Under the pieces are notes generated by a model. It did not search any database. It worked only from the letters and a program-made list of their open reading frames with translations, and had not been told where the DNA came from. From a virus, in the UHGV virus genome UHGV-0279810: a stretch of DNA of 19,836 nucleotides; one strand, 5' to 3'. Position numbers and translations under genes: made by a program. Positions within the stretch are counted from its first letter, which is position 1; each line of letters opens with the position of its first letter. Below, in pieces: positions 1 through 19,752 of this stretch.

Positions 1-150
1 CGAGGCAATTTGCGTAGTTCACGGTAAGCCCCCATTGTCGGCAGGCCAACCGTTTTACATTGCGGAATGCGCCACGTTGACGCCCATGCGGTAACAGCCG
101 CGGCAGTGTCTTTCAGCGGTCTGCCGGTACCGTTATCGAGCTGACCATCC
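1..150 (-). pseudogene. Inverted, diverged partial copy of a P2-type gene A segment (homologous to + strand 413-562); runs off the left window edge
   Basis: Reverse complement of 1-150 aligns base-for-base with 413-562 with about 9 mismatches, mostly at third codon positions. In the gene A reading frame on the + strand there is a TGA at 78-80, so this stretch is not a continuation of the downstream A ORF. Confidence 0.6.
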
Positions 151-179
151 TCAAGGATAATGATTTACAGGTCTACGGT

Positions 180-1310
180 TTGCGAGTCGTCGAGCCACAC
201 CACGACGGAACGCCGCACTGGCATATGATGCTTTTTTGTAATCCACGCCAGCGTAACCAGATTATCGAAATCATGCGTCGCTATGCGCTCAAAGAGGATG
301 GCGACGAAAGAGGAGCCGCGCGAAACCGTTTTCAGGCAAAACATCTTAACCGGGGCGGTGCTGCGGGATATATCGCGAAATACATTTCAAAAAACATCGA
401 CGGCTATGCACTGGATGGTCAGCTCGATAACGACACCGGCAGGCCGCTGAAAGACACTGCAGCGGCTGTTAGCGCATGGGCGTCAACGTGGCGCATCCCG
501 CAATTTAAAACGGTTGGCCTGCCGACAATGGGGGCTTACCGTGAACTACGCAAATTGCCGCGCGGCGTCAGCATTGCTGATGAGTTTGACGAGCGCGTCG
601 AGGCTGCACGCGCCGCCGCAGACAGTGGTGATTTTGCGTTGTATATCAGCGCGCAGGGTGGGGCAAATGTCCCGCGCGATTGTCAGACTGTCAGAGTCGC
701 CCGTATCCCGTCGGATGACGTTAACGAGTACGAGGAAGAAGTCGAGAGAGTGGTCGGCATTTACGCGCCGCATCTCGGCGCGCGTCATATTCATATCACC
801 AGAACGACGGACTGGCGCATTGTGCCGAAAGTTCCGGTCGTTGAGCCTTTGACTTTAAAAAGCGGCATCGCCGCGCCTCGGAGTCCTGTCAATAACTGTG
901 GAAAACTCACCGGTGGTGATACTTCGTTACCGGTTCCCACACCTTCTGAGCACGCCGCAGCAGTGCTTAATCTGGTTGATGACGGTGTTATCGAATGGAG
1001 TGACCCGGAGGTCGTGAGGGCGCTCAGAGGTGCATTAAAACACGGTCGGAGAACGCCAAATCGTCAGCAAAGAAACGGAAGCCCGTTAAAACCACATGAA
1101 ATTGCACCATCGGCCAGACTGGCCCGGTCGGAACGAATGCAAATTACCCGTATCCGCGTTGACCTTGCTCAGAACGGTATCAGGCCGCAGCGATGGGAGC
1201 TTGAGGCGCTGGCGCGTGGCGCGACCGTAAATTATGACGGGAAAAAATTCACGTATCCGGTCGCTGATGAGTGGTTCGGATTTCAAGATGAAGTGTCATT
1301 TTTTATATAA
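180..1310 (+). CDS. A: Replication initiation endonuclease gpA (rolling-circle Rep), 3' portion only; 5' part not contiguous in this window
   Basis: ORF translation has a His-hydrophobic-His motif (PHWHMMLF) followed about 50 residues later by paired tyrosines (GYIAKYISKN), as in HUH rolling-circle initiators. Position immediately upstream of the P2 tin/old slot. Frame is open back to 81 but no ATG/GTG start; the ORF track begins at a TTG. Confidence 0.8.
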   Translation: MRVVEPHHDGTPHWHMMLFCNPRQRNQIIEIMRRYALKEDGDERGAARNRFQAKHLNRGGAAGYIAKYISKNIDGYALDGQLDNDTGRPLKDTAAAVSAWASTWRIPQFKTVGLPTMGAYRELRKLPRGVSIADEFDERVEAARAAADSGDFALYISAQGGANVPRDCQTVRVARIPSDDVNEYEEEVERVVGIYAPHLGARHIHITRTTDWRIVPKVPVVEPLTLKSGIAAPRSPVNNCGKLTGGDTSLPVPTPSEHAAAVLNLVDDGVIEWSDPEVVRALRGALKHGRRTPNRQQRNGSPLKPHEIAPSARLARSERMQITRIRVDLAQNGIRPQRWELEALARGATVNYDGKKFTYPVADEWFGFQDEVSFFI

Positions 1311-1384
1311 AAAACGTTAAAATTCAATGCAATGAAGGCATAGAGGAGGTCGCTTTAATATGTTTTATGTTTAATATTTATTAA

Positions 1385-1413
1385 TTGTTTATTTAATATA
1401 AAAAAATATTATA
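1385..1413 (+). promoter_or_regulatory. Candidate sigma70 promoter for the cargo operon (TTGTTT -N16- TATTAT)
   Basis: TTGTTT at 1385-1390 and TATTAT at 1407-1412 in the AT-rich stretch after the A stop. Many alternative AT-rich hexamers exist nearby, so this is weak. Confidence 0.2.
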
Positions 1414-1449
1414 TATAGGGAGATCAAATACAACGGTTTACTTGTTATG

Positions 1450-1726
1450 ATGCAAACATTGGTTAGTTAGTGAGATACATCGCCATCAATTGGGTAACTT
1501 TACCCGTGGAAAGTTAACGCTTTCTAACATTTACCCCGCGCAACGCCCCTGCCAGCGACAAGAGTCACAGGATCAGGCGGTATGGCGTATGGGTATTCGA
1601 ACCCTTTGGGCGACCAAGGGTTCGTGGAGCAGGGGGCTAGTGCTGTTCAATCTCATCCTTATGAGGGCGAACCATAGTGTTGGAGCAGACATATCGTTTG
1701 CACACTATGGGCATAAGGAGCAAATC
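1450..1726 (+). ncRNA. Candidate structured non-coding RNA / regulatory leader upstream of the HTH-RT module (possible retron msr-msd); boundaries not resolved
   Basis: No ribosome-binding site for the ORF-track reading frame. Hairpins read by eye: CGAACCCTT-N9-AAGGGTTCG (1598-1624) and CCATAGTGT-N21-ACACTATGG (1672-1710). Near-palindrome GGGTAA-CT-TTACCC (1492-1505) and a second TTTACCC at 1530-1536. A retron RT gene normally has its ncRNA directly upstream. Confidence 0.25.
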
Positions 1727-1882
1727 ATGAAGAATGATAAATTAACCAACGAACAGCAGGCGCAGAACAAGTCAAACCTGAAAAAGTGGGCTGGTTATGT
1801 TTGGAAATTAATCAAATGGGGTATTAGACTGTTTGATTTAGCCACTCGAGCACTGGACTACTTTGAAGGGGGTGATGAGTAA
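1727..1882 (+). CDS. Small hypothetical protein (51 aa), first gene of the cargo operon
   Basis: ATG at 1727 preceded by AAGGAG (1715-1720) at good spacing. It is the only part of ORF 1490-1882 with a ribosome-binding site. Product MKNDKLTNEQQAQNKSNLKKWAGYVWKLIKWGIRLFDLATRALDYFEGGDE has a Trp-rich amphipathic segment. Confidence 0.45.
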   Translation: MKNDKLTNEQQAQNKSNLKKWAGYVWKLIKWGIRLFDLATRALDYFEGGDE

Positions 1883-1906
1883 TGCGTCCTCCCTAGTTTC
1901 AATAGC

Positions 1907-2239
1907 ATGGAGTTGCCTATGTTACACAGAGCCCTTCGTTTAATAAGGCAATACCATAAAGAGTCATTGGTTGATTTATCAACATCTTTAGGTATTCCAA
2001 AAGAAAAAATAGTAGAACTCGAAAGTGGGGTTTGGTCGCCTACAATTGATGTTTTACAGCGTTACGCCTCCCATTTCGATATGCCGGTATCTTCTTTAGT
2101 ATTTTTTTCAGAATCGTTAGGTACGCAGGGGCGTTTATCTAAGCGTTTCCGTTTAAATTTAGCTGGTAAAGTATTAGATGTTATTGAGTGGGCGAATAAG
2201 AAAAATGAAAAGACGAATAAAACTCAAAATTTCCACTAA
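1907..2239 (+). CDS. XRE-family helix-turn-helix DNA-binding protein (about 106-110 aa)
   Basis: Translation contains a classic XRE HTH (SLVDLSTSLGIPKEKIVELESG...SPTIDVLQRYASHF). Alternative start ATG at 1919 has a better GGAG upstream. Its 3' end abuts or overlaps the RT gene. Confidence 0.7.
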   Translation: MELPMLHRALRLIRQYHKESLVDLSTSLGIPKEKIVELESGVWSPTIDVLQRYASHFDMPVSSLVFFSESLGTQGRLSKRFRLNLAGKVLDVIEWANKKNEKTNKTQNFH

Positions 2240-3155
2240 AAATAAATCTTACGATATAATTGATTCGCCGTTTTATAAAATGAGAAGTAAAAGGAAATTG
2301 GCTTCTTTATTGGGGGTTGATGTAGGGGATTTATCAACCTTAAAAAAAGATGAAGGCAATTATTCTATTTTTGAACAGTTATCTAAAAACGGAAAGCCAC
2401 GTAAGATACAAAAACCATTAGAAAAATTAGATGTGGTGCATACTCGTATTGCAAGTCTGCTATCGCGAATTACCTTGCCAGATTATCTACATTCTGGAAA
2501 GAAGGGATGTTCTAATGTTACTAATGCTAAAATCCACCTTAATAATGAAAGGTTGATGACAACCGACATCAGGGCTTTTTTTCCATCAACTACTAGAGAA
2601 ATGATATTTTCATTCTTTTTTTCTGTTATGAAGATGTCATCTGATGTTGCGGATGTATTATCGTATATATGTACTTGCTATGGGCGTTTGCCTACAGGTA
2701 GCAGGATTAGTATGCCTCTTGCATATTTTGCAAATTCAAGAATGTTCGGAGAAATACACCAACTTTGTAATAAACTACACGTAAATATGTCTGTTTATGT
2801 TGATGATCTAACTTTTTCAGGACAAAACGTTAATAGACTATTTTGTTCAGTGATTCGCAAAATAATAAATAAGCATGGTCATGTGATGCATGCGGATAAA
2901 ACAAAAATTTATAGTAGAGAAAAGCCTAAGTTGGTAACAGGTGTTATTGTTTTGGGCGGTTCTTTAAAAGTCAGGAATAAGCAGCATCTTTTAATGTCTC
3001 AAGAAATTGAATATTGGAAAATGATAAAGGATGCAGCGTGTGCAAGAGAAACTCATACTGCCAAAAAGTTATTTGGACGATTGCATTCTATGGGGGTAAT
3101 TGAACAACGTTATAGATCAAAGGTGCTTACATTAAAAGCAAGTACTGCACTTTAA
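2178..3155 (+). CDS. Retron-type reverse transcriptase (about 291-325 aa depending on start)
   Basis: RT motifs in the translation: DIRAFFPS (motif 4-like), SVYVDDLTFSG (catalytic YxDD), NAKIH (retron NAxxH motif) and KLVTGVIVLGG (retron VTG motif). Size matches retron RTs of about 300-320 aa. Possible starts at 2178, 2205 or 2280. Confidence 0.85.
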   Translation: MLLSGRIRKMKRRIKLKISTKNKSYDIIDSPFYKMRSKRKLASLLGVDVGDLSTLKKDEGNYSIFEQLSKNGKPRKIQKPLEKLDVVHTRIASLLSRITLPDYLHSGKKGCSNVTNAKIHLNNERLMTTDIRAFFPSTTREMIFSFFFSVMKMSSDVADVLSYICTCYGRLPTGSRISMPLAYFANSRMFGEIHQLCNKLHVNMSVYVDDLTFSGQNVNRLFCSVIRKIINKHGHVMHADKTKIYSREKPKLVTGVIVLGGSLKVRNKQHLLMSQEIEYWKMIKDAACARETHTAKKLFGRLHSMGVIEQRYRSKVLTLKASTAL

Positions 3156-3206
3156 TACAGGTTCCTGTAAGTGATTATATTGTTCTTAAGATACTTACTG
3201 ATGTTA

Positions 3207-3236
3207 TTTCCCCGTAGCCTTAATTTCTGCGGGGAA
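3207..3236. terminator. Hairpin between convergent RT and FRG genes (possible bidirectional terminator)
   Basis: TTTCCCCGTAG (3207-3217) pairs with CTGCGGGGAA (3227-3236) around a 9-nt loop; a T-rich run follows on the + strand only. Confidence 0.3.
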
Positions 3237-3263
3237 GTATGGAGATATTTTGGTTATGGAATG

Positions 3264-4628
3264 CTAATTTTTTAATGTGTATTTTTCTGTGATTAGTTTC
3301 ATTGTTCTTTCCAATCCTAAATATACAGTGGCATCAGTAATATTGAGCACGGCAAGTTCTTTTAAAATTTTCTTTTTGTCTCTGATGTTTATTTTTTCTG
3401 TCTTAAAGTTGTATGGTGAATTATCTGCCTGATCGTTGGATATCTCAGGAAAAACGGCGTTATTACCGAATAATAAAAAGGCACCGGATTGAGATGATAT
3501 TCTTTCATTATTTATCCTGCTTTTTACAAAAATTATCTTTTCCAAATCATCTGGATTTATTATGCTTTGAAAATATGGTTTTTCATGCTTTATGGATTCT
3601 AAGAGTTTAAGGCAAGCATGAGAGTTGTTAAAATCATTATTTCTTTCTTCGAAAGAAAGCTTGTCTTTCATGTCTTTTGATAGCATGCATAAATTAGATA
3701 TGCAACTGACAGTGTCGGAATCGAAAAATTTAATGTTCTCTCTGTGTGTTTTAAATATTATTACTTGACCATCGATATCGTTTTTGTCGGAATTTATACT
3801 ACTGCATGCAAAATAAAGTGCAATTAATGGATTTGATGTGATGTCAAGTAAGCGAGTAGGTATGCCATAATGTTGCATTCTTACAAGTTTATCAAGCATT
3901 GATGTATCATCAATGAATTCTGAGGGTCTTGCGCTCAATGCTTCTTTAACAAGGTTGATTTCATTATGTAGAAATTTATAGTTCCCATTTTCATATTTTC
4001 TGAAAAGAGATGGTGCAAGTTCATAAGATGAATCTGAATGACCCCTGTAAAAAATCTCCTCATCCATATCTGCTGTTATATGGAGAACTTTTTCAATAAA
4101 TTCTTGTAAACTATTTACGGTTAATAATGTGCTATCTTCGTCTGGGAGAGGCGCTGGACTGCTATCCACTTGTGCATTTTGGTTAATACCAAATGTCTTA
4201 AGGATATCATCTATATTTTTGTCTTTTATGGCCCAGTGTGTTCTTTTAAGGCCATAAGTTCCGAGTTCTAAACTGCTTTCAACACTTTTGGCGTCTGATA
4301 TTTTGATTTCATTGTGTGTATGGGTGATTGCAAATTGGAAGTTGATTTCTTTTCCCTTAATGTGAATATTTGAAATTCTTCCAATTCGTATGTCGACATA
4401 ATAAGGTTTTGCTCCCTCTATTTGATAAGCTTCACTCATGAATATTGTTGGGAGTTTTTCAAGATAAGATAGTACATTGCTGCTTAATGGGGATAGTTTT
4501 TTGCGAATACCATCGGAGGTGTTTTCAAACATTCGTGATAAAAGAAATGAGAATTCTCCATTATTTTGGCTGAATGGTTTCCAGTGGTCGTAGTGGTCGG
4601 GAAAACCACCCATAATTAAATTAATCAT
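3264..4628 (-). CDS. FRG-domain protein (454 aa), candidate defence protein; N- and C-terminal regions of unknown function
   Basis: Central region carries the FRG-domain signature: FYRGHSDSSYELAPSLFR ... MQHYGIPTRLLDITSNPLIALYFA. AT-rich, lies in the P2 tin/old slot, convergent to the RT operon. Start ATG at 4628 with a weak AGGT ribosome-binding site. Confidence 0.65.
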   Translation of the reverse strand: MINLIMGGFPDHYDHWKPFSQNNGEFSFLLSRMFENTSDGIRKKLSPLSSNVLSYLEKLPTIFMSEAYQIEGAKPYYVDIRIGRISNIHIKGKEINFQFAITHTHNEIKISDAKSVESSLELGTYGLKRTHWAIKDKNIDDILKTFGINQNAQVDSSPAPLPDEDSTLLTVNSLQEFIEKVLHITADMDEEIFYRGHSDSSYELAPSLFRKYENGNYKFLHNEINLVKEALSARPSEFIDDTSMLDKLVRMQHYGIPTRLLDITSNPLIALYFACSSINSDKNDIDGQVIIFKTHRENIKFFDSDTVSCISNLCMLSKDMKDKLSFEERNNDFNNSHACLKLLESIKHEKPYFQSIINPDDLEKIIFVKSRINNERISSQSGAFLLFGNNAVFPEISNDQADNSPYNFKTEKINIRDKKKILKELAVLNITDATVYLGLERTMKLITEKYTLKN

Positions 4629-4911
4629 AATTACCTGTTCATCTGATGTAGGTGTAGGAATGCTTGTTGTTTGTTATGGTAATGTTAACGCTTGTTGGTG
4701 GCAACTACTATTACTACTTGCTGTTAGAGCTAAGACATTTTTTGATTGCTTGTAATGATAGCGAGCCTTTAACTAACTGGGATTTTGAAAAAATAAATGA
4801 ATTGTCAATTTCCTGAGATTTTTATTACTGCATTCATTAAGTGCATTTTTTTGCGTGTGTTAGTTGCCATGCTTTTCCATGTTTGTTACCAGTGTTGATG
4901 CGGTTACTGTG

Positions 4912-4933
4912 TTTTAATGCAATTGCATTAAAA
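4912..4933. repeat. 22-bp perfect palindrome TTTTAATGCAATTGCATTAAAA about 20 bp left of cos
   Basis: Exact self-complementary sequence read directly; candidate protein-binding site or hairpin. Confidence 0.6.
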
Positions 4934-4952
4934 GCGCCCTATGAAGCGGGCG

Positions 4953-4971
4953 GGCGAGGCGGGGAAAGCAC
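4953..4971. other. cos: P2-type cohesive end site (cos), 19-nt GGCGAGGCGGGGAAAGCAC
   Basis: Matches the 19-nt cohesive-end sequence of phage P2 as I recall it, and sits at the expected place between the tin/old slot and gene Q. Confidence 0.7.
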
Positions 4972-5113
4972 TGCGCGCTGGCGGTGGTGCGGATTTTATT
5001 TTTTCAGCGTCTGAGCGCGTCGTGAAGGCGTTTACTTGGCCTGCTAGGGCGTTGGTGTGTCTGCGGGGTGTTTTGTGCGGTGGTGAGCGTGTGAGGGCGT
5101 GATGACGGGGTGT

Positions 5114-5135
5114 AAAAAAGCCGCCCGCAGGCGGC
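5114..5135 (-). terminator. Rho-independent terminator after Q (minus strand)
   Basis: GCCGCC-CGCA-GGCGGC hairpin (5120-5135) followed on the minus strand by TTTTTT (complement of 5114-5119), just downstream of the Q stop. Confidence 0.55.
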
Positions 5136-5140
5136 GATGT

Positions 5141-6175
5141 TCAGCCGTTGTCAGTGTCCAGTGAGTAGTTTTTAAAGCGGATGACCTCCTGGCCGAGCCA
5201 GCCGTTTATTTCCCGAATCCTGTCCTGTAACGGGATTAGCTCATTGCGGACAAAGACCTTTGCCACTTTCTCAATATCACCCAGTGACCCGACGTTCTCC
5301 GGCTTGCCACCCATCAACTGAAAGGGGATGCGGTGTGCGTCCAGCAGGTCAGCGGCGCTGGCTTTTTTGATATTAAAAAAATCGTCCTTCGTCGCCACTT
5401 CACTGAGCGGGATAATTTTAATGCCGTCGGCTTTCCCCTGCGGGGCATAGAGAAACAGGTTTTTAAAGTTGTTGCGGCCTTTCGACTTCACCATGTTTTC
5501 GCGAAGCATTTCGATATCGTTGCGATCCTGCACGGCATCGGTGACGTACATGATGTATCCGGCATGTGCGCCATTTTCGTAATACTTGCGGCGGAACAGC
5601 GTGGCCGACTCATTCAGCCAGGCAGAGTTAAGGGCGCTGAGATATTCCGGCAGGCCGTACAGCTCCTGATTAATATCCGGCTCCAGCAGGTGAAACACGG
5701 AGCCGGGCGCGAAGGCTGTCGGCTCGTTGAAGGACGGCACCCACCAGTAAACATCCTCCTCCACGCCACGGCGGGTATATTTTGCCGGTGAGGTTTCCAG
5801 TCTGATGACCTTACCGGTGGTGCTGTAACGCTTTTCCAGAAACGCATTACCGAACACCAGAAAATCCAGCACAAAGCGGCTGAAATCCTGCTGGGAAAGC
5901 CACGGGTGCGGGATAAACGTTGAAGCCAGAATATTACGTTTGACGTAAATCGGTGAGCTGTGATGCACGGCAGCACGCAGGCTTTTTGCCAGACCGGTAA
6001 AGCTGACCGGCGGCTCATACCATCTGCCGTTACTGATACATTCGACGTAATCCAGAATGTCACGGCGGTCGAGCACCGGCACCGGCTCACCAAAGGTGAA
6101 TGCCTCCATTTTCGGGGCGCTGGCGGTCATTTTTTTTGCCGCAGGTTGCGGTGTTTTCCCTTTTTTCTTGCTCAT
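5141..6175 (-). CDS. Q: Portal protein gpQ
   Basis: 344-aa product with Lys-rich N-terminus MSKKKGKTPQPAAKK; P2 order cos-Q-P on the minus strand; ATGA start/stop overlap with P. Confidence 0.9.
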   Translation of the reverse strand: MSKKKGKTPQPAAKKMTASAPKMEAFTFGEPVPVLDRRDILDYVECISNGRWYEPPVSFTGLAKSLRAAVHHSSPIYVKRNILASTFIPHPWLSQQDFSRFVLDFLVFGNAFLEKRYSTTGKVIRLETSPAKYTRRGVEEDVYWWVPSFNEPTAFAPGSVFHLLEPDINQELYGLPEYLSALNSAWLNESATLFRRKYYENGAHAGYIMYVTDAVQDRNDIEMLRENMVKSKGRNNFKNLFLYAPQGKADGIKIIPLSEVATKDDFFNIKKASAADLLDAHRIPFQLMGGKPENVGSLGDIEKVAKVFVRNELIPLQDRIREINGWLGQEVIRFKNYSLDTDNG

Positions 6176-7947
6176 CAGTAAAACTCCAGAATGGTGGATG
6201 TCAGCGGGGTGCTGATACCGGCGGTGAGTGGCTCATTTAACAGGGCGTGCATGGTCGCCCAGGCGAGGTCGGCGTGGCTGGCTTCCTCGCTGCGGCTGGC
6301 CTCATAAGTGGCGCTGCGTCCGCTGCTGGTCATGGTCTTGCGGATAGCCATAAACGAGCTGGTGATGTCGGTGGCGCTGACGTCATATTCCAGACAGCCA
6401 CGGCGGATAACGTCTTTTGCCTTGAGCACCATTGCGGTTTTCATTTCCGGTGTGTAGCGGATATCGCGCGCGGCGGGATAGAACGAGCGCACGAGCTGGA
6501 ACACGCCGACACCGAGGCCGGTGGCATCAATACCGATGTATTCGACGTTGTATTTTTCGGTGAGTTTGCGGATGGATTCAGCCTGAGTGGCAAAGTCCAT
6601 GCCTTTCCACTGGTGACGCTCAAGTATTCTGAATTTGCCACCGGCCACCACCGGCGGTGCCAGCACCACGCATCCGGCACTGTCGCCACGGTGTGACGGG
6701 TCGTAACCAATCCATACCGGGCGGGAGCCGAACGGATTGGCGGCAAAGGGTGCATAGTCTTCCCATTCTTCCAGCGTGTCGACCATGCAGCGTTGCAGCT
6801 CCTCGAACGGGAACACCGACGCCTTGTCGTCAACAAATTCACACATGAACAGGTTTTTAAAATCGTCGGCGCTGTTTTCACGTTTGAGCTGCTCAATGTC
6901 GAACAGTGTGCAGCCGCCTTTCAGGGCGTCCTCAATGGTGACAATCTGCCGCCACTGGCCGTCCGCACAGAGAAGCCCGCTGGCAAGGGCGTTATGACTG
7001 ACGTCGATTTCCACACGTTCGGCGGCGCTGGCACGTCCCCGGTTGAACAGTTCACCTGACCAGAACGGGTAGGCGTCGTGCGCCAGCGTGGACGGGGTGG
7101 AGAAATAGGTCGAGCGCAGGTGACTCTGTGAGGCCATACCTGATGCCACCTTACGCAGTACCTGAAAATTCGGGATCCAGAAAATCTCATCGACGTACAG
7201 GTCGCCGTTATGGCTCTGCGCGGTGTTGGAGTTGGTGCCGAGAAAAATCAGTTTTGCGCCGTTATTGCCCAGGACAATCGGGTCACCGGTAAGGTCAACG
7301 TCCACCAGACGGGCAAAGGCGATGATGTATTCGCGGAACACATACGCCTGCGTTTTACTGGCCGACAGAAAAATCTGGTTATGACCGGTTTTCAGGGCGC
7401 GCAGCAGTGCCTCGCGGGAAAAATAAAACGTCGCGCCAATCTGGCGGGATTTCAGGATATCGCGGATGCGGTGCTCAAGCCCGGCGCGATACCAGTGCAA
7501 CTGATAGTCGAAAGACTGCTCAAAGAAAATCTGCTCCAGCTTTTCGATGGCTTCGTCACTGAAAAAATTCTTTTTCGGTTTGCGACGCCCGCCTTTGTTG
7601 CGGTTAGCGACGTTCGGATTAAGGTCTGCCTCGTTGCCGGTCTGGCTGTAGCGGTTTACCCGTGCCAGTCGTTCAATCTGGCGTCCCAGCAGGTCAATTT
7701 CCTTGAAGTCACCGCCGGTTTTCTGCGGTTTGATGATGAGCTGGGTCAGCCGCGCTTCCAGGCTCATTTCGACACGGCTGATGGGGGCAACGCTGTCCCA
7801 GCCGTCGCGCTGTTTCCAGCTCTGCACCGTCGGGCGTTTCATCTGCAACATGGCGGCAATCTGCGGCACGGAAAACCCCTGCCAGTACAGCAGCGCCGCC
7901 TGACGACGCGGGTCGTGTAAAAGAGTGGTGTCTGTGGTGATGGTCAT
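6175..7947 (-). CDS. P: Terminase large (ATPase) subunit gpP
   Basis: 590-aa product from MTITTDTTLLHDPRRQAALLYWQGF; start moved 10 codons inside the ORF-track start (7977) to the ATG at 7947, which has GAGGT upstream. Confidence 0.9.
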   Translation of the reverse strand: MTITTDTTLLHDPRRQAALLYWQGFSVPQIAAMLQMKRPTVQSWKQRDGWDSVAPISRVEMSLEARLTQLIIKPQKTGGDFKEIDLLGRQIERLARVNRYSQTGNEADLNPNVANRNKGGRRKPKKNFFSDEAIEKLEQIFFEQSFDYQLHWYRAGLEHRIRDILKSRQIGATFYFSREALLRALKTGHNQIFLSASKTQAYVFREYIIAFARLVDVDLTGDPIVLGNNGAKLIFLGTNSNTAQSHNGDLYVDEIFWIPNFQVLRKVASGMASQSHLRSTYFSTPSTLAHDAYPFWSGELFNRGRASAAERVEIDVSHNALASGLLCADGQWRQIVTIEDALKGGCTLFDIEQLKRENSADDFKNLFMCEFVDDKASVFPFEELQRCMVDTLEEWEDYAPFAANPFGSRPVWIGYDPSHRGDSAGCVVLAPPVVAGGKFRILERHQWKGMDFATQAESIRKLTEKYNVEYIGIDATGLGVGVFQLVRSFYPAARDIRYTPEMKTAMVLKAKDVIRRGCLEYDVSATDITSSFMAIRKTMTSSGRSATYEASRSEEASHADLAWATMHALLNEPLTAGISTPLTSTILEFY

Positions 7948-7977
7948 GAATACCTCGCCGTGATGAATACACGGCAA

Positions 7978-8120
7978 GGCTACTGAGTCGCGCCCCGCGA
8001 TTCGCTAAGGTGCTGTTGTGTCAGTGATAAGCCATCCGGGACTGATGGCGGAGGATGCGTATCGTCGGGAAACTGATGCCGACATGTGACTCCTCTAATC
8101 ACTATTCAGGACTCCTGACA
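7978..8120. promoter_or_regulatory. Divergent late-promoter region between P and O (expected Ogr-activated promoters)
   Basis: Intergenic region between divergently transcribed P and O, as in P2. I could not place an exact TGT-N12-ACA element by eye. Confidence 0.4.
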
Positions 8121-8975
8121 ATGGCAAAAAAAGTCTCAAAATTCTTTCGTATCGGCGTTGAGGGTGACACCTGTGACGGGCGTGTCATCAGTGCGCAGGA
8201 TATTCAGGAAATGGCCGAAACCTTTGACCCGCGAGTCTATGGTTGCCGCATTAACCTGGAACATCTGCGCGGCGTCCTGCCTGACGGTATTTTTAAGCGT
8301 TATGGCGATGTGGTCGAACTGAAGGCCGAAAAGATTGACGATGATTCGGCGCTGAAAGGCAAATGGGCGCTGTTTGCGAAAATCACCCCGACCGATGACC
8401 TTATCGCGATGAACAAGGCCGCGCAGAAGGTCTATACCTCAATGGAAATTCAGCCGAACTTTGCCAATACCGGCAAATGTTATCTGGTGGGTCTGGCCGT
8501 CACCGATGACCCGGCAAGCCTCGGCACGGAATACCTGGAATTCTGCCGCACGGCAAAACACAACCCCCTGAACCGCTTCAAATTAAGCCCTGAAAACCTG
8601 ATTTCAGTGGCAACGCCCGTTGAGCTGGAATTTGAAGACCTGCCTGAAACCGTGTTCACCGCCCTGACCGAAAAGGTGAAGTCCATTTTTGGCCGCAAAC
8701 AGGCCAGCGATGACGCCCGTCTGAATGACGTGCATGAAGCGGTGACCGCTGTTGCTGAACATGTGCAGGAAAAACTGAGCGCCACTGAGCAGCGCCTCGC
8801 TGAGATGGAAACCGCTTTTTCCGCACTTAAGCAGGATGTGACTGACAGGGCGGATGAAACCAGCCAGGCATTCACCCGCCTGAAAAACAGTCTCGACCAC
8901 ACCGAAAGTCTGACCCAGCAGCGCCGCAGCAAGGCCACCGGTGGTGGCGGTGACGCCCTGATGACGAACTGCTGA
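8121..8975 (+). CDS. O: Capsid scaffolding protein gpO
   Basis: 284 aa from MAKKVSKFFRIGVEGDTCDG; internal start chosen over ORF-track start 8055; position after P. Confidence 0.9.
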   Translation: MAKKVSKFFRIGVEGDTCDGRVISAQDIQEMAETFDPRVYGCRINLEHLRGVLPDGIFKRYGDVVELKAEKIDDDSALKGKWALFAKITPTDDLIAMNKAAQKVYTSMEIQPNFANTGKCYLVGLAVTDDPASLGTEYLEFCRTAKHNPLNRFKLSPENLISVATPVELEFEDLPETVFTALTEKVKSIFGRKQASDDARLNDVHEAVTAVAEHVQEKLSATEQRLAEMETAFSALKQDVTDRADETSQAFTRLKNSLDHTESLTQQRRSKATGGGGDALMTNC

Positions 8976-9033
8976 CCGGCGTCAGTCAGTCCGGGAAAAC
9001 CTTCACGATTAACCCTTAATTTCAGGAAAAACT

Positions 9034-10107
9034 ATGCGCCAGGAAACCCGCTTTAAATTTAATGCCTACCTGTCCCGTGTTGCCGAACTGAACGGCATCG
9101 ACGCCGGTGATGTGTCGAAAAAATTCACCGTTGAACCGTCGGTCACCCAGACCCTGATGAACACCATGCAGGAGTCCTCTGACTTTCTGACCCGCATCAA
9201 CATTGTGCCGGTCAGCGAAATGAAAGGGGAAAAAATTGGCATCGGTGTCACCGGCTCCATCGCCAGCACCACCGACACCGCCGGTGGCACCGAGCGTCAG
9301 CCGAAGGACTTCTCGAAGCTGGCGTCAAACAAGTACGAATGCGACCAGATTAACTTCGATTTTTATATCCGCTACAAAACGCTGGACCTGTGGGCGCGTT
9401 ATCAGGATTTCCAGCTCCGTGTCCGTAACGCCATTATCAAACGCCAGTCCCTTGATTTAATCATGGCCGGTTTTAACGGCGTGAGGCGTGCCGGAACCTC
9501 TGACCGCAGCAGCAATCCGATGCTGCAGGATGTGGCGGTCGGCTGGCTGCAGAAATACCGCAATGAAGCCCCGGCGCGCGTGATGAGCAAGGTCGCTGAC
9601 GAGGAAGGTCGCACCACCTCTGAGGTCATCCGCGTGGGTAAGGGCGGTGATTATGCCAGCCTTGACGCACTGGTGATGGATGCGACCAACAACCTGATTG
9701 AGCCGTGGTATCAGGAAGACCCTGACCTTGTGGTGATTGTGGGACGTCAGCTACTGGCGGACAAGTATTTTCCCATCGTCAACAAGGAGCAGGACAACAG
9801 CGAAATGCTGGCCGCTGACGTCATCATCAGCCAGAAACGCATCGGTAACCTGCCGGCGGTACGCGTCCCGTACTTCCCGGCGGATGCGATGCTCATCACA
9901 AAGCTGGAAAACCTGTCCATCTACTACATGGATGACAGCCATCGCCGCGTGATTGAGGAAAACCCGAAACTCGACCGCGTGGAGAACTACGAGTCAATGA
10001 ACATTGATTACGTGGTGGAAGACTACGCCGCCGGTTGTCTGGTGGAAAAAATTAAGGTCGGTGATTTCTCCACACTGGCTAAAGCGACCGCAGAGCCGGG
10101 AGCGTAA
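9034..10107 (+). CDS. N: Major capsid protein gpN
   Basis: 357 aa; AGGA ribosome-binding site; P2 order O-N-M. Confidence 0.92.
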   Translation: MRQETRFKFNAYLSRVAELNGIDAGDVSKKFTVEPSVTQTLMNTMQESSDFLTRINIVPVSEMKGEKIGIGVTGSIASTTDTAGGTERQPKDFSKLASNKYECDQINFDFYIRYKTLDLWARYQDFQLRVRNAIIKRQSLDLIMAGFNGVRRAGTSDRSSNPMLQDVAVGWLQKYRNEAPARVMSKVADEEGRTTSEVIRVGKGGDYASLDALVMDATNNLIEPWYQEDPDLVVIVGRQLLADKYFPIVNKEQDNSEMLAADVIISQKRIGNLPAVRVPYFPADAMLITKLENLSIYYMDDSHRRVIEENPKLDRVENYESMNIDYVVEDYAAGCLVEKIKVGDFSTLAKATAEPGA

Positions 10108-10110
10108 CCG

Positions 10111-10854
10111 ATGACGAGTCCCGCACAGCGCCACATGATGCGGGTCTCGGCAGCGATGACCGCGCAGCGGGAAGCCGCCCCGCTGCGACATGCAACTGTC
10201 TATGAGCAGATGCTGGTTAAGCTCGCCGCAGACCAGCGCACACTGAAAGCGATTTATTCAAAAGAGCTGAAGGCCGCGAAAAAACGCGAACTGCTGCCGT
10301 TCTGGTTGCCGTGGGTGAACGGCGTGCTGGAGCAGGGCAAAGGTGCACAGGATGACATTCTGATGACGGTCATGCTGTGGCGTCTGGATACCGGCGATAT
10401 TGCCGGTGCGCTGGAGATTGCCCGTTATGCCCTGAAGTACGGTCTGACCATGCCGGGTAAACACCGCCGTACCCCGCCGTACATGTTCACCGAGGAGGTA
10501 GCGCTTGCGGCCATGCGCGCTCACGCTGCCGGTGAGTCTGTGGATACCCGCCTGCTGACGGAGACCCTTGAACTGACCGCCACGGCTGACATGCCTGATG
10601 AAGTGCGCGCAAAGCTGCACAAAATCACCGGTCTGTTTCTGCGTGACGGTGGTGATGCCGCCGGTGCGCTGGCTCACCTGCAACGTGCGACACAGCTCGA
10701 CTGTCAGGCAGGCGTCAAAAAAGAGATTGAACGACTGGAGCGGGAGCTGAAACCGAAGCCGGAGCCGCAGCCCAAAGCGGCCACCCGCGCCCCGCGTAAG
10801 ATCCGGAGCGTGACACCGGCAAAACGTGGACGCCCGAAAAAGAAAGCCAGTTAA
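10111..10854 (+). CDS. M: Terminase small (endonuclease) subunit gpM
   Basis: 247 aa with basic C-terminal tail (RGRPKKKAS); starts 4 nt after N stop. Confidence 0.9.
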   Translation: MTSPAQRHMMRVSAAMTAQREAAPLRHATVYEQMLVKLAADQRTLKAIYSKELKAAKKRELLPFWLPWVNGVLEQGKGAQDDILMTVMLWRLDTGDIAGALEIARYALKYGLTMPGKHRRTPPYMFTEEVALAAMRAHAAGESVDTRLLTETLELTATADMPDEVRAKLHKITGLFLRDGGDAAGALAHLQRATQLDCQAGVKKEIERLERELKPKPEPQPKAATRAPRKIRSVTPAKRGRPKKKAS

Positions 10855-10953
10855 CAACCGAATGCGCCCCGCGCCAGGGCGGCACGCCGGTCAGTGAGGG
10901 TGAATCACCTGACACTGCACCGGCGTCCACCGCCCGACTTTTCAGAGGTAGTC

Positions 10954-11463
10954 ATGATGACGCTGATTATTCCGCGAAAGGAGGCTCCCGTGTCCGGTGA
11001 GGGTACGGTGGTCATCCCGCAACCGGCAGGCGACGAGCCGGTGATTAAAAACACGTTCTTTTTTCCCGATATCGACCCGAAGCGCGTCCGGGAACGTATG
11101 CGCCTTGAGCAGACCGTCGCCCCCGCCCGTCTGCGTGAGGCCATCAAGTCAGGCATGGCGGAGACGAATGCGGAGCTGTACGAGTACCGCGAACAGAAAA
11201 TTGCCGCCGGTTTTACGTGTCTGGCGGACGTCCCGGCGGACGACATCGACGGTGAAAGCATCAAAGTTTTTTACTACGAGCGCGCCGTGTGTGCGATGGC
11301 GACCGCGTCGCTTTATGAACGTTATCGCGGTGTGGATGCCAGTGCGAAAGGCGACAAGAAGGCCGACAGCATTGACAGCACCATTGATGAGCTGTGGCGG
11401 GATATGCGCTGGGCAGTGGCGCGCATCCAGGGCAAGCCGCGCTGCATCGTGAGTCAAATCTGA
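10954..11463 (+). CDS. L: Head completion/stabilisation protein gpL
   Basis: 169 aa from MMTLIIPRKEAP; GAGG ribosome-binding site; internal start chosen over ORF-track 10894. Confidence 0.88.
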   Translation: MMTLIIPRKEAPVSGEGTVVIPQPAGDEPVIKNTFFFPDIDPKRVRERMRLEQTVAPARLREAIKSGMAETNAELYEYREQKIAAGFTCLADVPADDIDGESIKVFYYERAVCAMATASLYERYRGVDASAKGDKKADSIDSTIDELWRDMRWAVARIQGKPRCIVSQI

Positions 11464-11666
11464 TGAAGACCTTTGCGCTACAGGGCGACACGCTCGACGC
11501 CATTTGTGTCCGGTATTACGGGCGCACTGAGGGCGTGGTTGAGACCGTGCTCGCCGCAAATCCGGGACTGGCTGAACTGGGTGCGGTGCTGCCACACGGC
11601 ACCGCCGTCGAACTGCCCGACGTTCAGACCGCGCCCGTGGCTGAAACTGTCAATCTGTGGGAGTAA
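11463..11666 (+). CDS. X: Tail protein gpX (67 aa)
   Basis: MKTFALQGDTLDAICVRYYGR...; ATGA overlap with L stop; ORF-track N-terminal extension (11394) rejected. Confidence 0.85.
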   Translation: MKTFALQGDTLDAICVRYYGRTEGVVETVLAANPGLAELGAVLPHGTAVELPDVQTAPVAETVNLWE

Positions 11667-11669
11667 CGC

Positions 11670-11951
11670 ATGACAGCAGAAGAAAAAAGCGTCCTGTCGC
11701 TTTTCATGATTGGGGTGCTGATTGTTGTCGGCAAGGTGCTTGCCGGTGGTGAACCCATCACCCCGCGTCTGTTTATCGGGCGCATGTTGCTCGGTGGTTT
11801 TGTCTCGATGGTTGCCGGTGTTGTTCTGGTGCAGTTTCCTGACCTGTCACTGCCTGCGGTGTGCGGCATCGGCTCCATGCTGGGTATCGCCGGTTATCAG
11901 GTGATTGAGATTGCCATTCAGCGCCGCTTTAAGGGCAGGGGGAAACCGTAA
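11670..11951 (+). CDS. Y: Holin gpY
   Basis: 93 aa with hydrophobic transmembrane stretches, immediately before the lysozyme gene. Confidence 0.88.
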   Translation: MTAEEKSVLSLFMIGVLIVVGKVLAGGEPITPRLFIGRMLLGGFVSMVAGVVLVQFPDLSLPAVCGIGSMLGIAGYQVIEIAIQRRFKGRGKP

Positions 11952-12448
11952 TGCCGGTTATTAACACGCATCAGAATATCGCCGCCTTTCTCGACATGCT
12001 GGCCGTGTCCGAAGGGACGGCAAACCATCCGCTGACGAAAAACCGGGGCTATGACGTGATAGTCACCGGACTGGACGGGAAGCCGGAAATTTTCACCGAC
12101 TACAGTGACCACCCGTTCGCGCATGGCCGACCGGCGAAGGTGTTTAACCGTCGCGGTGAAAAGTCCACGGCATCCGGTCGCTATCAGCAGCTTTACCTGT
12201 TCTGGCCGCACTACCGCAAACAGCTTGCCCTGCCGGATTTCAGTCCGTTGTCACAGGACAGGCTCGCCATTCAGTTGATCCGCGAACGCGGTGCACTGGA
12301 TGACATCCGGGCGGGACGCATTGAGCGCGCTATTTCACGCTGTCGCAATATCTGGGCGTCCCTGCCGGGAGCCGGTTACGGTCAGCGTGAGCATTCACTG
12401 GAAAAACTGGTCACCGTCTGGCGTACCGCTGGCGGCGTACCGGCTTAA
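11951..12448 (+). CDS. K: Endolysin (lysozyme) gpK
   Basis: 165 aa; start overlaps Y stop; P2 lysis cassette order. Confidence 0.9.
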   Translation: MPVINTHQNIAAFLDMLAVSEGTANHPLTKNRGYDVIVTGLDGKPEIFTDYSDHPFAHGRPAKVFNRRGEKSTASGRYQQLYLFWPHYRKQLALPDFSPLSQDRLAIQLIRERGALDDIRAGRIERAISRCRNIWASLPGAGYGQREHSLEKLVTVWRTAGGVPA

Positions 12449-12462
12449 ACGGAGTAAACACC

Positions 12463-12888
12463 ATGAAGAAATTATCCCTTTCACTGATGCTGAACGTGTC
12501 GCTGGCGCTGATGCTGGCACTGTCCCTGATTTACCCGCAGAGCGTGGCCGTCAGTTTTGTCGCCGCCGGGGCGATTCTGGCGACGGTTATCTGTGTGGTT
12601 GCCGGTGGTGTCGGCGTGTATGCCACAGAGTATGTACTGGAGCGCTACGGGCGGGAGCTGTCGCCGGAATCGCTGGCCGTGAAGATTGTCGCGTCGCTGT
12701 TTTTGCAGCCGGTGCCGTGGCGCAGACGGGCGGCGGCTCTGGTGGTGATGGTGGCGACGTTTATCTCGCTGGTCGCTGCCGGGTGGATTTTTACTGCGCT
12801 GATTTACCTCGTGGCGTCGGTGTTTTTCCGGCTGATACGTAAAGCCTGTCGTCAGCGTCTTGAGGGGCGGGAATTATGTCAAAGCTGA
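12463..12888 (+). CDS. lysA: LysA lysis-timing membrane protein
   Basis: 141 aa, strongly hydrophobic with multiple transmembrane segments; GGAG ribosome-binding site. Confidence 0.85.
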   Translation: MKKLSLSLMLNVSLALMLALSLIYPQSVAVSFVAAGAILATVICVVAGGVGVYATEYVLERYGRELSPESLAVKIVASLFLQPVPWRRRAAALVVMVATFISLVAAGWIFTALIYLVASVFFRLIRKACRQRLEGRELCQS

Positions 12889-13301
12889 TGATTGTGCTGG
12901 TCGTGTTGTTATCGCTGGCGGTGGCGGGGCTGTTTCTGGCGAAGCATGAAAACGCCAGCCTGCGCACCTCACTGGACAGGGCGAACAGCGTCGCCAGCGG
13001 GCAGCAGACGACCATCACCATGCTGAAAAATCAGCTTCATGTTGCACTCACCAGGGCAGACAAAAACGAGCTGGCGCAGGTGGCACTGCGTCAGGAACTG
13101 GAGAACGCCGCGAAGCGTGAAGCACTGCGCGAGAAAACCATCACGAGGTTACTTAATGAAAACGAGGATTTTCGCCGCTGGTATGGCGCTGACCTGCCTG
13201 ATGCTGTGCGCCGGTTGCACCAGCGCCCCGCCTGCACCGACGCCAGTGATTGTCCACAACGCCTGCCCGAAAGTGAGTCTTTGCCCGATGCCGGGCAGTG
13301 A
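12876..13301 (+). CDS. lysB: LysB, Rz-like inner-membrane spanin
   Basis: 141 aa with N-terminal transmembrane helix then a charged coiled-coil-like region. Confidence 0.85.
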   Translation: MSKLMIVLVVLLSLAVAGLFLAKHENASLRTSLDRANSVASGQQTTITMLKNQLHVALTRADKNELAQVALRQELENAAKREALREKTITRLLNENEDFRRWYGADLPDAVRRLHQRPACTDASDCPQRLPESESLPDAGQ

Positions 13302-13446
13302 CCCGGAGACGAACGGCGATTTAAGTGCCGATATCCGGCAGCTTGAGAACGCGCTGGCACGCTGTGCCAGCCAGGTAAAAATGATTAAACACTGTCAGGA
13401 CGAAAACGATGCTCAAACCCGACAGCCTGCGCAGGGCGCTGACTGA
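13156..13446 (+). CDS. lysC: LysC, Rz1-like outer-membrane lipoprotein spanin, begins in the +1 frame inside lysB and extends past it into R
   Basis: ATG at 13156 inside ORF 13039-13446; product MKTRIFAAGMALTCLMLCAGC... has a lipobox (LCAGC) and a Pro-rich region. Confidence 0.75.
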   Translation: MKTRIFAAGMALTCLMLCAGCTSAPPAPTPVIVHNACPKVSLCPMPGSDPETNGDLSADIRQLENALARCASQVKMIKHCQDENDAQTRQPAQGAD

Positions 13447-13876
13447 TGCCGTCACGGTGCTGAAAACTAACCCCGATATGCTGCGGATATTCGTGGATAA
13501 CGGGAGTATTGCTTCCACACTGGCGACGTCGCTGTCATTCGAAAAGCGTTACACGCTCAATGTCATTGTGACCGACTTTACCGGTGATTTTGACCTGCTC
13601 ATCGTGCCGGTGCTGGCGTGGCTGCGGGAAAATCAGCCCGACATCATGACCACCGACGCAGGTCAGAAAAAGGGCTTCACGTTTTATGCAGACATCAACA
13701 ATGACAGCAGCTTTGATATCAGCATCAGCCTGATGCTGACCGAGCGAACGCTGGTCAGTGAGGTGGACGGCGCACTGCATGTGAAGAATATCCCGGAACC
13801 TCCGCCGCCGGAGCCGGTCACCCGCCCGGTGGAGCTTTATATCAATGGCGAACTGGTGAGCAAGTGGGATGAATGA
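13409..13876 (+). CDS. R: Tail completion protein gpR
   Basis: 155 aa; AGGA ribosome-binding site; P2 order. Confidence 0.88.
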   Translation: MLKPDSLRRALTDAVTVLKTNPDMLRIFVDNGSIASTLATSLSFEKRYTLNVIVTDFTGDFDLLIVPVLAWLRENQPDIMTTDAGQKKGFTFYADINNDSSFDISISLMLTERTLVSEVDGALHVKNIPEPPPPEPVTRPVELYINGELVSKWDE

Positions 13877-14321
13877 GTTTAAGCGTTTTGAAGACCGGCT
13901 GACCGGACTTATTGAATCGCTGTCACCGTCAGGGCGTCGACGACTGAGTGCCGAACTGGCGAAACGTCTGCGTCAGAGTCAGCAGCGTCGGGTGATGGCA
14001 CAGAAAGCCCCGGACGGCACACCCTACGCGCCACGCCAGCAGCAGAGCGCCAGAAAAAAGACCGGTCGCGTTAAGCGAAAAATGTTTGCGAAACTTATCA
14101 CCAGTCGTTTTTTGCATATCCGCGCCAGCCCGGAACAGGCATCAATGGAGTTTTACGGCGGGAAGTCACCGAAAATCGCCAGCGTGCATCAGTTCGGTCT
14201 GTCGGAAGAAAACCGGAAAGACGGTAAGAAAATTGATTATCCGGCGCGTCCTCTGCTCGGCTTTACCGGTGAGGATGTGCAGATGATTGAAGAGATTATC
14301 CTGGCTCACCTCGACCGTTAG
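13869..14321 (+). CDS. S: Tail completion protein gpS
   Basis: 150 aa; overlaps R end; P2 order. Confidence 0.88.
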   Translation: MNEFKRFEDRLTGLIESLSPSGRRRLSAELAKRLRQSQQRRVMAQKAPDGTPYAPRQQQSARKKTGRVKRKMFAKLITSRFLHIRASPEQASMEFYGGKSPKIASVHQFGLSEENRKDGKKIDYPARPLLGFTGEDVQMIEEIILAHLDR

Positions 14322-14390
14322 TTGTGCCATTCCCGACACCTCATCGTCACATTGCCGCCGGTATGACCCGGCGGCATCCTTCCCGTTATG
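14322..14390 (+). promoter_or_regulatory. Late promoter region of gene V (TGT-N12-ACC activator-site-like element at 14323-14340) plus the V start codon
   Basis: TGTGCCATTCCCGACACC resembles the TGT-N12-ACA dyad I recall for P2 late promoters; ATG at 14388-14390 is followed immediately by inverted sequence. Confidence 0.4.
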
Positions 14391-14730
14391 ATCCGCCGAC
14401 GCAGACGGCGCGGGGTTATCGCCGGAATAAATCCCCGGCAGAACGAACGCCGTGTCGAGTTCACCGCCCACGGCCAGAATCAGCACCTGTTCCCCCACGG
14501 AAGGTGCCCACCATGTGCGCGAACGTCCGGCGCGATGGGTCAGCCACTGCAGCCAGTCGGTACACATGCCGCCGGTCTGCACACGGCAGCGACCGGCGTT
14601 AAGGTCGGTTTCGACGATAACGCCGGTGCGAATCATGTTGCGCAGTGCGCGCGCGAGTTCCTGAATATTTGCGAGAGTGTTCATAACGGGAAGGATGCCG
14701 CCGGGTCATACCGGCGGCAATGTGACGATG
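14342..14730. repeat. 49-bp perfect inverted repeat pair (14342-14390 and 14682-14730): V upstream region plus ATG, and its reverse complement
   Basis: Direct comparison of the two stretches; identical as reverse complements. Confidence 0.85.
14391..14684 (-). pseudogene. V: Baseplate spike gene V, N-terminal fragment (codons 1-98) in inverted orientation
   Basis: Minus-strand translation MNTLANIQELARALRNMIRTGVIV...GIYSGDNPAPSASAD, then reads into unrelated sequence; on the opposite strand to all neighbouring late genes. Confidence 0.75.
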
Positions 14731-14857
14731 CACATGGTGGGCACCTTCCGTGGGGGAACAGGTGCTGATTCTGGCCGTGGGCGGTGAACTCGACACGGCG
14801 TTCGTTCTGCCGGGGATTTATTCCGGCGATAACCCCGCGCCGTCTGCGTCGGCGGAT
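14391..14857. repeat. 127-bp perfect inverted repeat pair (14391-14517 and 14731-14857): V codons about 56-98 in both orientations, flanking a 213-bp spacer
   Basis: Reverse complement of 14391-14517 equals 14731-14857; mirrored ORF-track peptides on opposite strands confirm it (for example MSSSPPTARISTCSPTEGAHHV on + at 14452 and on - at 14796). Confidence 0.85.
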
Positions 14858-15543: not shown

Positions 15544-15547
15544 AACC

Positions 15548-16979: not shown

Positions 16980-16989
16980 GTGAGAAACA

Positions 16990-19749: not shown

Positions 19750-19752
19750 TTT

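What the first reader, a model, noticed from the sequence alone, without database searches (positions are those of the whole stretch)
1..562. Head-to-head truncated gene A copies: diverged inverted copy of A segment 413-562 at the window edge
Positions 1-150 are the reverse complement of 413-562 at roughly 94% identity, and most of the mismatches are synonymous in the A reading frame. That pattern argues for a second, diverged P2-family A gene kept under purifying selection before the rearrangement, rather than a recent in-situ duplication or a sequencing artefact. The + strand A reading frame hits a TGA at 78-80, so the 5' two-thirds of A, and presumably B, cox, C and int, are not contiguous with this copy. 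The prophage is therefore probably rearranged, defective, or joined to a remnant of a second P2-like element.
Basis: seen in the sequence. Interest (0 to 1): 0.45.

Follow-up and report, generated by a model that had tools for sequence, protein, structure and literature searches.

The report
Inverted replication-gene fragment, probably chimeric
The first 150 bases of this P2-like prophage window really are an inverted, slightly different copy of a nearby piece of the phage replication gene A, but the evidence points to a chimeric join (from amplification, library preparation or assembly) rather than an old second gene copy.

Summary
Window 1-150 is the reverse complement of 413-562, matching 142/150 with no gaps, and the join at 150/151 is blunt. 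The + strand A frame stops at 78-80. Only codons 378-762 of the 762-codon gene A follow the join, so about half the gene is missing, not two-thirds.

The arm does come from a different natural A allele. Six of its 8 differences are polymorphisms of another intact P2-like prophage. The other two (D471G, F495C) replace residues conserved in distant homologues and occur in none of about 2,000 other A copies.

- The allele boundary is not at the junction. Window 151-245 also carries the second allele's variants, and the switch to the main allele lies in the identical stretch 246-343.
- A second strand-switch anomaly, an inverted 340-nt block, breaks baseplate gene V at 14391-14730.
- Apart from these anomalies, the window differs at 3 bases in 19.5 kb from intact prophages in about 12 complete E. 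coli genomes. None of the junctions occurs in any collection searched.

Most likely this is a technical fold-back or chimeric join in a sample holding two P2-like alleles (about 0.6). A real, private rearrangement of a defective prophage remains possible (about 0.3). Low interest.

The parts
1..150 (-). Inverted fragment of replication gene A (codons 465-513 plus flanking bases). It is a second-allele type, like E. coli O121 GTVSS-020, and carries two private substitutions: window 130 (D471G) and window 58 (F495C).
150..151 (.). Blunt strand-switch junction J0 with 0 nt of microhomology. It joins the reverse complement of A position 413 to A position 151, so the partners lie 262 nt apart.
151..245 (+). 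Start of the forward A sequence. It still carries second-allele states at 185 and 245, which are the only two differences from the closest genomes in 151-1400.
246..343 (+). 98-nt stretch identical in both alleles. The sequence changes from the second allele to the main (KE40 / WP7-S17-ESBL-01 type) allele somewhere inside it.
151..1310 (+). 3' half of gene A (codons 378-762). It has the HUH motif at 216-224, active-site tyrosines Y450 and Y454 at 369-371 and 381-383, and the P2 ori nick-site sequence at 873-892. There is no start codon context and no N-terminal half.
413..562 (+). Forward partner of the inverted arm, main allele. It is 150/150 identical to intact prophages.
14391..14730 (-). 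Second anomaly: a 340-nt block of the S-V intergenic region plus the 5' end of gene V, present in inverted orientation. It is 100% identical to the reference. Its junctions J1 (14391) and J2 (14730) each have 1 nt of overlap.
14342..14857 (.). Perfect inverted repeats created by that block: 14342-14391 with 14681-14730 (50 nt), and 14391-14518 with 14730-14857 (128 nt). Gene V is split into a minus-strand N-terminal piece (14166-14684) and a plus-strand C-terminal piece (14750-15199).

Best explanation
The head-to-head A fragment is most likely a technical chimera, not a structure resident in a genome.

Inferred scenario: the sequenced DNA held two P2-like A alleles, from two prophages in one strain or from two strains or phages in one sample. 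A fold-back (strand-switch) molecule or path formed within the second allele, joining the reverse complement of A 413-562 to A 151 onward. That piece was then connected to the main prophage through the 98-nt stretch (246-343) where the two alleles are identical. The same kind of strand switch, with partners 212-290 nt apart, also produced the inverted 340-nt block in gene V.

Shown: the sequence anatomy, the allele assignments, the second anomaly, and the uniqueness of the junctions.

Inferred: that the joins arose in vitro or in silico (strand-displacement amplification, library fold-back, gap-closing or contig stitching) rather than in the cell.
For: 1. Apart from the anomalies, window 151-19836 differs from the intact prophage of E. 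coli KE40 at 3 bases in 19.5 kb, with no indels. About 12 complete genomes match equally well, and all have a full-length 762-aa A and an intact V.
2. Two of those 3 differences (185, 245) lie within 95 nt of the junction and equal the second allele's states. From 266 onward every discriminating site is the main allele, so the allele switch is in 246-343 and not at 150/151.
3. There are three strand-switch junctions in one 19.8-kb window, with similar partner distances of 262, 290 and 212 nt.
4. The arm's two private substitutions are both nonsynonymous and replace an invariant Phe and a conserved acidic residue. They are absent from 1,779 E. coli A copies on this background (best match 148/150) and from 190 IMG/VR copies. 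This is what base errors in a thinly covered contig end would look like.
5. None of the junctions is present in 5,426 complete E. coli genomes, IMG/VR, GTDB representative genomes or JGI metagenome contigs. The chimeric or truncated ORFs are not in the 153-billion-gene index.
6. The A gene is a common contig-break site: 41 of 192 IMG/VR P2-like loci end inside it, 7 of them at window-equivalent 242-297.
7. Inverted, short-range chimeras are a documented product of strand-displacement amplification. In MDA, 85% of chimeras are inverted and they occur about once per 10-22 kb (PMC1855051). They are also documented for library preparation and long-read fold-backs (PMC10908179, PMC12870357).
Against: - No reads, coverage or assembly graph are available, so artefact status is inferred.
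- The junctions are blunt (0, 1 and 1 nt of overlap). In contrast, 93.5% of proximal inverted MDA chimeras show at least 2 nt of complementarity, and the library fold-back models also rely on pre-existing inverted repeats.
- A de Bruijn assembler would not normally prefer rare chimeric paths over the true path. The joins must therefore have been at high frequency in the reads, or have been introduced by a stitching or gap-closing step I cannot identify.
- Whether window base 1 is a contig end is unknown.
Confidence: 0.6

Rival explanations
1. The rearrangements are real but private. The host carries, or carried, two P2-like prophages. Illegitimate blunt joins occurred, for example an inversion with breakpoints in two directly oriented A genes, or replication template switching or end-joining after breakage. 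Together with homologous exchange in 246-343, they left a defective prophage with a truncated A and a split V.
For: - The sequence as given contains the structures.
- The arm is a bona fide natural allele.
- Blunt junctions fit end-joining better than primed template switching.
- An inversion between two directly oriented prophages broken at A 412/413 and A 150/151 would give exactly this head-to-head join (my inference).
- P2-like remnants are known at this yegR-yegQ site in E. coli K-12 (own knowledge).
Against: - It needs at least two independent rare rearrangements plus an allele exchange in a 20-kb element that otherwise has essentially no point divergence from intact relatives.
- None of the junctions occurs in any other genome or contig searched.
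- The allele boundary does not coincide with the junction.
- The arm has two changes at conserved residues while 19.5 kb next to it has almost none.
Confidence: 0.3
2. This is the first reader's version: an old, separately evolving second A gene, or a remnant of a second P2-like element, sits head-to-head next to this prophage and diverged in place.
For: The arms are 5% diverged with dN/dS 0.19.
Against: - The divergence is accounted for by a pre-existing allele of intact prophages. Six of the 8 sites are identical to L016, and that allele differs from arm 2 with dN/dS 0.06.
- Window 151-245, on the 'main' side of the join, is also of that allele.
- An old resident remnant should be shared by related strains, yet none of the 5,426 complete genomes has it.
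Confidence: 0.06
3. The join was made by the phage's own A protein, an HUH nicking-joining enzyme, through strand transfer at ori-like sites.
For: - A is a nicking-closing enzyme. The HUH motif, Y450/Y454 and the ori sequence are all present.
- The junction sequence CCTC resembles 4 bases of the ori core CCTCGGAG.
Against: - The annotated P2 nick site maps to window ~880. That is 730 nt from 150/151 and 467 nt from 412/413.
- The 4-base similarity is offset from the nick position and is at chance level.
- The V junctions show no ori similarity.
Confidence: 0.02

Closest known systems
Fold-back or inverted chimeras from strand-displacement amplification (MDA; Lasken & Stockwell 2007, PMC1855051), library-preparation strand-pairing artefacts (PMC10908179) and long-read fold-back artefacts (PMC12870357)
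   Same: - A forward segment is joined to the reverse complement of sequence a few hundred nt away.
- There are several such joins per ~20 kb.
- The join is coupled to a switch between homologous templates.
- The underlying genes are otherwise unaltered.
   Different: - Junctions here are blunt (0-1 nt), whereas most MDA and library chimeras show at least 2 nt of complementarity or sit at natural inverted repeats.
- No read-level data are available to show low support.
Bacteriophage P2 gene A replication endonuclease (Pfam PF05840 Phage_GPA; HUH rolling-circle initiator that nicks ori inside its own gene)
   Same: - Window 151-1310 is 99.8% identical to full-length A genes.
- It keeps the HUH motif, Y450/Y454 and the ori nick sequence identical to P2.
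   Different: - Only codons 378-762 are present.
- No start codon or N-terminal half is contiguous.
- The inverted 50-codon fragment carries D471G and F495C at conserved positions.
Defective or cryptic P2-like prophage remnants in E. coli, such as the ogrK/yegZ remnant at the yegQ-yegR site of K-12 (own knowledge)
   Same: - Same attachment site as the closest intact relatives.
- As written, the element would be replication- and baseplate-defective.
   Different: - Known remnants are deletion products shared by lineages and carry accumulated point mutations.
- This element has essentially no point divergence, and its junctions are unique to this one sequence.
Inverted duplications from replication template switching (fold-back inversions, DUP-TRP/INV-DUP type)
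   Same: The topology is the same: an inverted block flanked by inverted duplications in V, and a fold-back with a 262-nt loop in A.
   Different: Those events usually use microhomology and are single clustered events. Here there are two sites 14 kb apart with blunt joins.

Membership tests
P2 gpA replication endonuclease (functional gene) | Match to Phage_GPA (PF05840) | tested here: met
   window 153-1310, E = 1.3e-37, but only profile positions 233-321 of 321 (the C-terminal part of the domain).
P2 gpA replication endonuclease (functional gene) | HUH metal-binding motif and the two active-site tyrosines | tested here: met
   the HUH motif (residues H-W-H) at 216-224; Y450 and Y454 at 369-371 and 381-383, in nearly invariant alignment columns. 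The catalytic role of the residues is from my own knowledge of P2 A.
P2 gpA replication endonuclease (functional gene) | Complete open reading frame of about 761-762 codons | tested here: not met
   the frame is closed by TGA at 78-80, homology to A starts at 151 (codon 378), and the 5' 49.5% is absent from the window.
P2 gpA replication endonuclease (functional gene) | ori nick site inside the gene | tested here: met
   the P2 rep_origin context gcgcctcggagtcctgtcaa is identical at window 873-892.
Resident second P2-like element (real head-to-head remnant) | The junction is shared by related genomes or independent assemblies | tested here: not met
   absent from 5,426 complete E. coli genomes, IMG/VR, GTDB representatives and JGI metagenomes.: the truncated ORFs are not on record.
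Resident second P2-like element (real head-to-head remnant) | The allele boundary coincides with the rearrangement junction | tested here: not met
   second-allele states continue to 245, and the switch lies in 246-343.
Resident second P2-like element (real head-to-head remnant) | The inverted arm continues leftward into the rest of a second prophage | not testable with these tools
   The arm starts at window base 1, and the source contig could not be located.
Technical fold-back / chimeric join | Strand switch between positions a few hundred nt apart, recurring within the same sequence | tested here: met
   three junctions with partner distances of 262, 290 and 212 nt.
Technical fold-back / chimeric join | Complementarity of at least 2 nt at the junction (the MDA priming model) | tested here: not met
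   overlaps of 0, 1 and 1 nt, against 93.5% with at least 2 nt in PMC1855051.
Technical fold-back / chimeric join | Low or anomalous read support, and location at a contig end | not testable with these tools
   No reads or assembly graph are available. The arm touches the window edge, and 41 of 192 IMG/VR P2-like loci end inside A, which is suggestive only.

The most novel reading that the evidence does not exclude
The joins are genuine in-vivo by-products of two P2-like phages replicating in one cell. Fold-back template switches occurred during rolling-circle or strand-displacement replication, together with a homologous switch between the two genomes, and were captured in a chromosome or a virion. 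This would be a natural counterpart of amplification chimeras and a route to instant prophage inactivation.
Probability: 0.08. Interest if true: 0.45.

Novelty: not a real feature. Interest (0 to 1): 0.1.

Why it matters
If it is an artefact, the practical value is a warning. This window should not be used to infer a defective prophage, a second resident P2-like element, or selection on a duplicated A gene. The same sequence also contains a second misjoin in gene V.

The case also shows that synonymous-biased divergence between two repeat arms does not rule out a technical chimera when two natural alleles coexist in a sample.

If the structure is real, it would be an ordinary though unusually abrupt example of prophage inactivation. 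It would be of interest only if a replication-linked mechanism could be shown.

Tried and rejected
- Locating the source contig. I scanned IMG/VR, GTDB representative genomes and JGI metagenome contigs for junction patterns, and searched complete E. coli genomes and GenBank phages by BLAST. Nothing was found.
- Exact-protein look-ups. I tried three possible truncated-A gene calls and the chimeric V ORF; none is on record. A look-up of the gpL R89C variant returned many unrelated P2-like prophages and not the source.
- A-protein nick-site hypothesis. Rejected: the nick site maps to window ~880, far from either breakpoint.
- Contig ends at allele-homology boundaries (de Bruijn graph logic).
  - The arm begins exactly 20 nt before the first allele difference, and junction J1 lies 4 nt after homology between prophage types restarts at the V start codon.
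  - However, the overlaps of 50 and 128 nt are unequal, and position 151 is not at any variant boundary. I could not turn this into a consistent assembler model.
- Window right end as a repeat boundary. The last 150 nt are single-copy in the closest genomes, and homology patterns there are uninformative.
- Rfam search of the whole window found nothing.
- Terminal direct repeats. None link the two window ends.

Full report
**What the window is.** It is the right-hand two-thirds of a P2-like (Peduovirus) prophage. In order it holds:
- the 3' part of replication gene A;
- a cargo island: a type VI retron (HTH plus reverse transcriptase) and an FRG-domain protein;
- portal and terminase on the minus strand;
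- capsid, lysis, tail and baseplate genes;
- tail fibre H and the first 90 nt of the tail-fibre assembly gene.

Window 151-19836 matches about 12 complete E. coli chromosomes at essentially 100%. In those genomes the prophage sits between yegR and yegQ and has a full-length 762-aa A and an intact V. The closest named phage is Peduovirus P22H1.

**Checking the observation.**
- Positions 1-150 are the reverse complement of 413-562, with 142/150 identities, no gaps and a 262-nt spacer. BLAST gives E = 3.6e-62.
- The + strand A frame is closed at 15-17 and 78-80.
- Homology to normal A begins exactly at 151. The normal gene reads ...GCACGGCAT|TCAAGG and the window reads ...GACCATCC|TCAAGG. The inverted arm would have continued with A rather than T. 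The junction is therefore blunt, with no shared base.
- Downstream of the join are codons 378-762, so half of A is missing, not two-thirds. This part includes the HUH motif (216-224), tyrosines 450 and 454 (369-371, 381-383) and the ori sequence (873-892).

**Where the arm comes from.** Of the 8 differences between the arms, 6 are exactly the states found in the intact A gene of the yegR-site prophage of E. coli O121 GTVSS-020 (loci L012/L016). Five of those are synonymous and one is S484T. That allele against arm 2 gives dN/dS 0.06, and the arm against arm 2 gives 0.19.

The remaining two differences are private to the arm and both change the protein:
- D471G falls in a column that is always Asp or Glu in eight distant homologues.
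- F495C falls in a column that is Phe in all eight of those homologues.
- The eight homologues were Yersinia, 186-like, Salmonella SI7, Haemophilus HP2, corticovirus PM2, Mannheimia, Vibrio and Klebsiella phages.
- No better match than 148/150 exists among 1,779 A copies in complete E. coli genomes.
- In IMG/VR, 0 contigs carry either private base, while at least 120 and 117 contigs carry the same flanks with any base there. All 190 A copies extracted have A and T at the two sites.

**The allele boundary is not at the junction.** Window 151-1400 differs from the closest genomes at exactly two sites, 185 and 245. Both lie next to the junction and both equal the second allele's state. From 266 onward every discriminating site (344, 368, 386, 395 and so on) is the main allele. 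So the stretch 1 to at least 245 is one allele, with the fold-back join inside it. The change to the main allele occurs somewhere in the 98-nt stretch 246-343, where both alleles are identical. The arms therefore differ because two alleles were spliced nearby by homology, not because an inverted copy diverged in place.

**A second anomaly.** Aligning the window to the intact KE40 prophage (locus L015) shows that window 14391-14730 is a 340-nt block in reverse orientation at 100% identity. It covers the S-V intergenic region plus the first 98 codons of baseplate gene V.
- It is flanked by perfect inverted duplications of 50 and 128 nt.
- The reference order a-b-c appears in the window as a | c'b'a' | c.
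- Both junctions overlap by a single base.
- Gene V is split into a minus-strand piece with the OB domain and a plus-strand piece with the spike domain.
- The three junctions in the window are all strand switches between positions 212-290 nt apart.
- Everything else is collinear with no indels. The one other mismatch is 11218 (gpL R89C), a state common in other P2-like prophages.

**Uniqueness.**
- No complete E. coli genome carries the A junction or the V inversion.
- The junction patterns tried in each collection gave no exact match: the A junction in IMG/VR, GTDB representative genomes and JGI metagenome contigs, and one or other V junction in each of them.
- The ORFs these joins would create are not on record in the large gene index.
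- None of 192 IMG/VR P2-like loci has A-gene matches on both strands.
- The A gene is a frequent contig-break point: 41 of the 192 loci end inside it, 7 of them at window-equivalent 242-297.

**Interpretation.** The most economical reading is a technical chimera. The sample held two P2-like alleles. A fold-back join formed within one allele, and that piece was linked to the main prophage through an identical stretch. The same process also inverted a block in V. Short-range inverted chimeras are well documented:
- for strand-displacement amplification, where 85% of chimeras are inverted and they occur about once per 10-22 kb (PMC1855051);
- for library preparation (PMC10908179);
- for long reads (PMC12870357).

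The two private substitutions at conserved residues fit base errors in a thinly supported end.

Against this reading:
- I have no reads.
- The junctions are blunt, whereas those artefact models mostly predict microhomology.
- I cannot name the exact step that made the joins. An unmerged, flipped small contig or a gap-filling product also fits the V structure, but not cleanly the A structure.

I put this reading at about 0.6.

A real, strain-private rearrangement is the main rival, at about 0.3. One example would be an inversion with breakpoints in two directly oriented A genes, plus a separate event in V. It requires several rare events in an element with almost no point divergence.

An old in-situ second copy is unlikely, at about 0.06. 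Its divergence is fully explained by a circulating allele, and related genomes lack it.

A-protein-mediated joining is rejected. The nick site (window ~880) is far from both breakpoints.

**Verdict.** The inference that a second allele is involved is correct. The biological story of a resident, selected second A copy and a remnant of a second element is not supported. Interest is low unless read-level data show that the joins are real.

Noticed in passing
window 14342-14857: A 340-nt block (the S-V intergenic region plus the first 98 codons of baseplate gene V) is inverted relative to all close relatives. This creates perfect inverted repeats of 50 and 128 nt and splits gene V. It is the same kind of strand-switch join as the finding.
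   Followed up: yes
window 1907-3155 (+) and 3264-4628 (-): The cargo island between A and the portal gene holds a type VI retron (PADLOC HTH_VI E = 7e-30, RT_VI E = 1e-105) next to an FRG-domain protein matching candidate defence family PDC-S15 (E = 7e-98). No Rfam family, including retron msr/msd, reaches threshold anywhere in the window.
   Followed up: partly
window 1311-1480: A very AT-rich non-coding stretch lies directly after the A stop codon. It contains a 14-nt imperfect inverted repeat (1299-1312 / 1392-1405). It may hold the cargo island's promoter or the retron non-coding RNA.
   Followed up: no
window 11218: This is the single C-to-T difference from the closest genomes outside the A region (gpL R89C). 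The same protein variant is common in other P2-like prophages (listed in 1,011 index blocks).
   Followed up: partly
L016 22693-23630; L020 13449-14528; L024 13440-14225: In related P2-like prophages the S-V intergenic region carries extra minus-strand cargo genes: a hypothetical protein in L016 and L024, and a RelA_SpoT-domain protein in L020. Homology to this window's type restarts exactly at the V start codon, 4 nt before junction J1.
   Followed up: partly
RefSeq records (e.g. NZ_CP145636.1, NZ_CP043406.1, NZ_AP041107.1): Many 'complete' E. coli chromosomes start exactly at or next to the start codon of the P2-like A gene (window 151 maps to record position 1130). Genome-rotation tools apparently take this phage replication gene as the chromosome start.
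   Followed up: no
IMG/VR loci L035-L226: 41 of 192 P2-like viral contigs end inside gene A. There are small clusters of ends at A nt 848-853 and 1221-1276 (window-equivalent 242-297).
   Followed up: partly
L015 38238-39400 (E. coli KE40): The late control gene D of the otherwise intact closest reference prophage is annotated as frameshifted.
   Followed up: no
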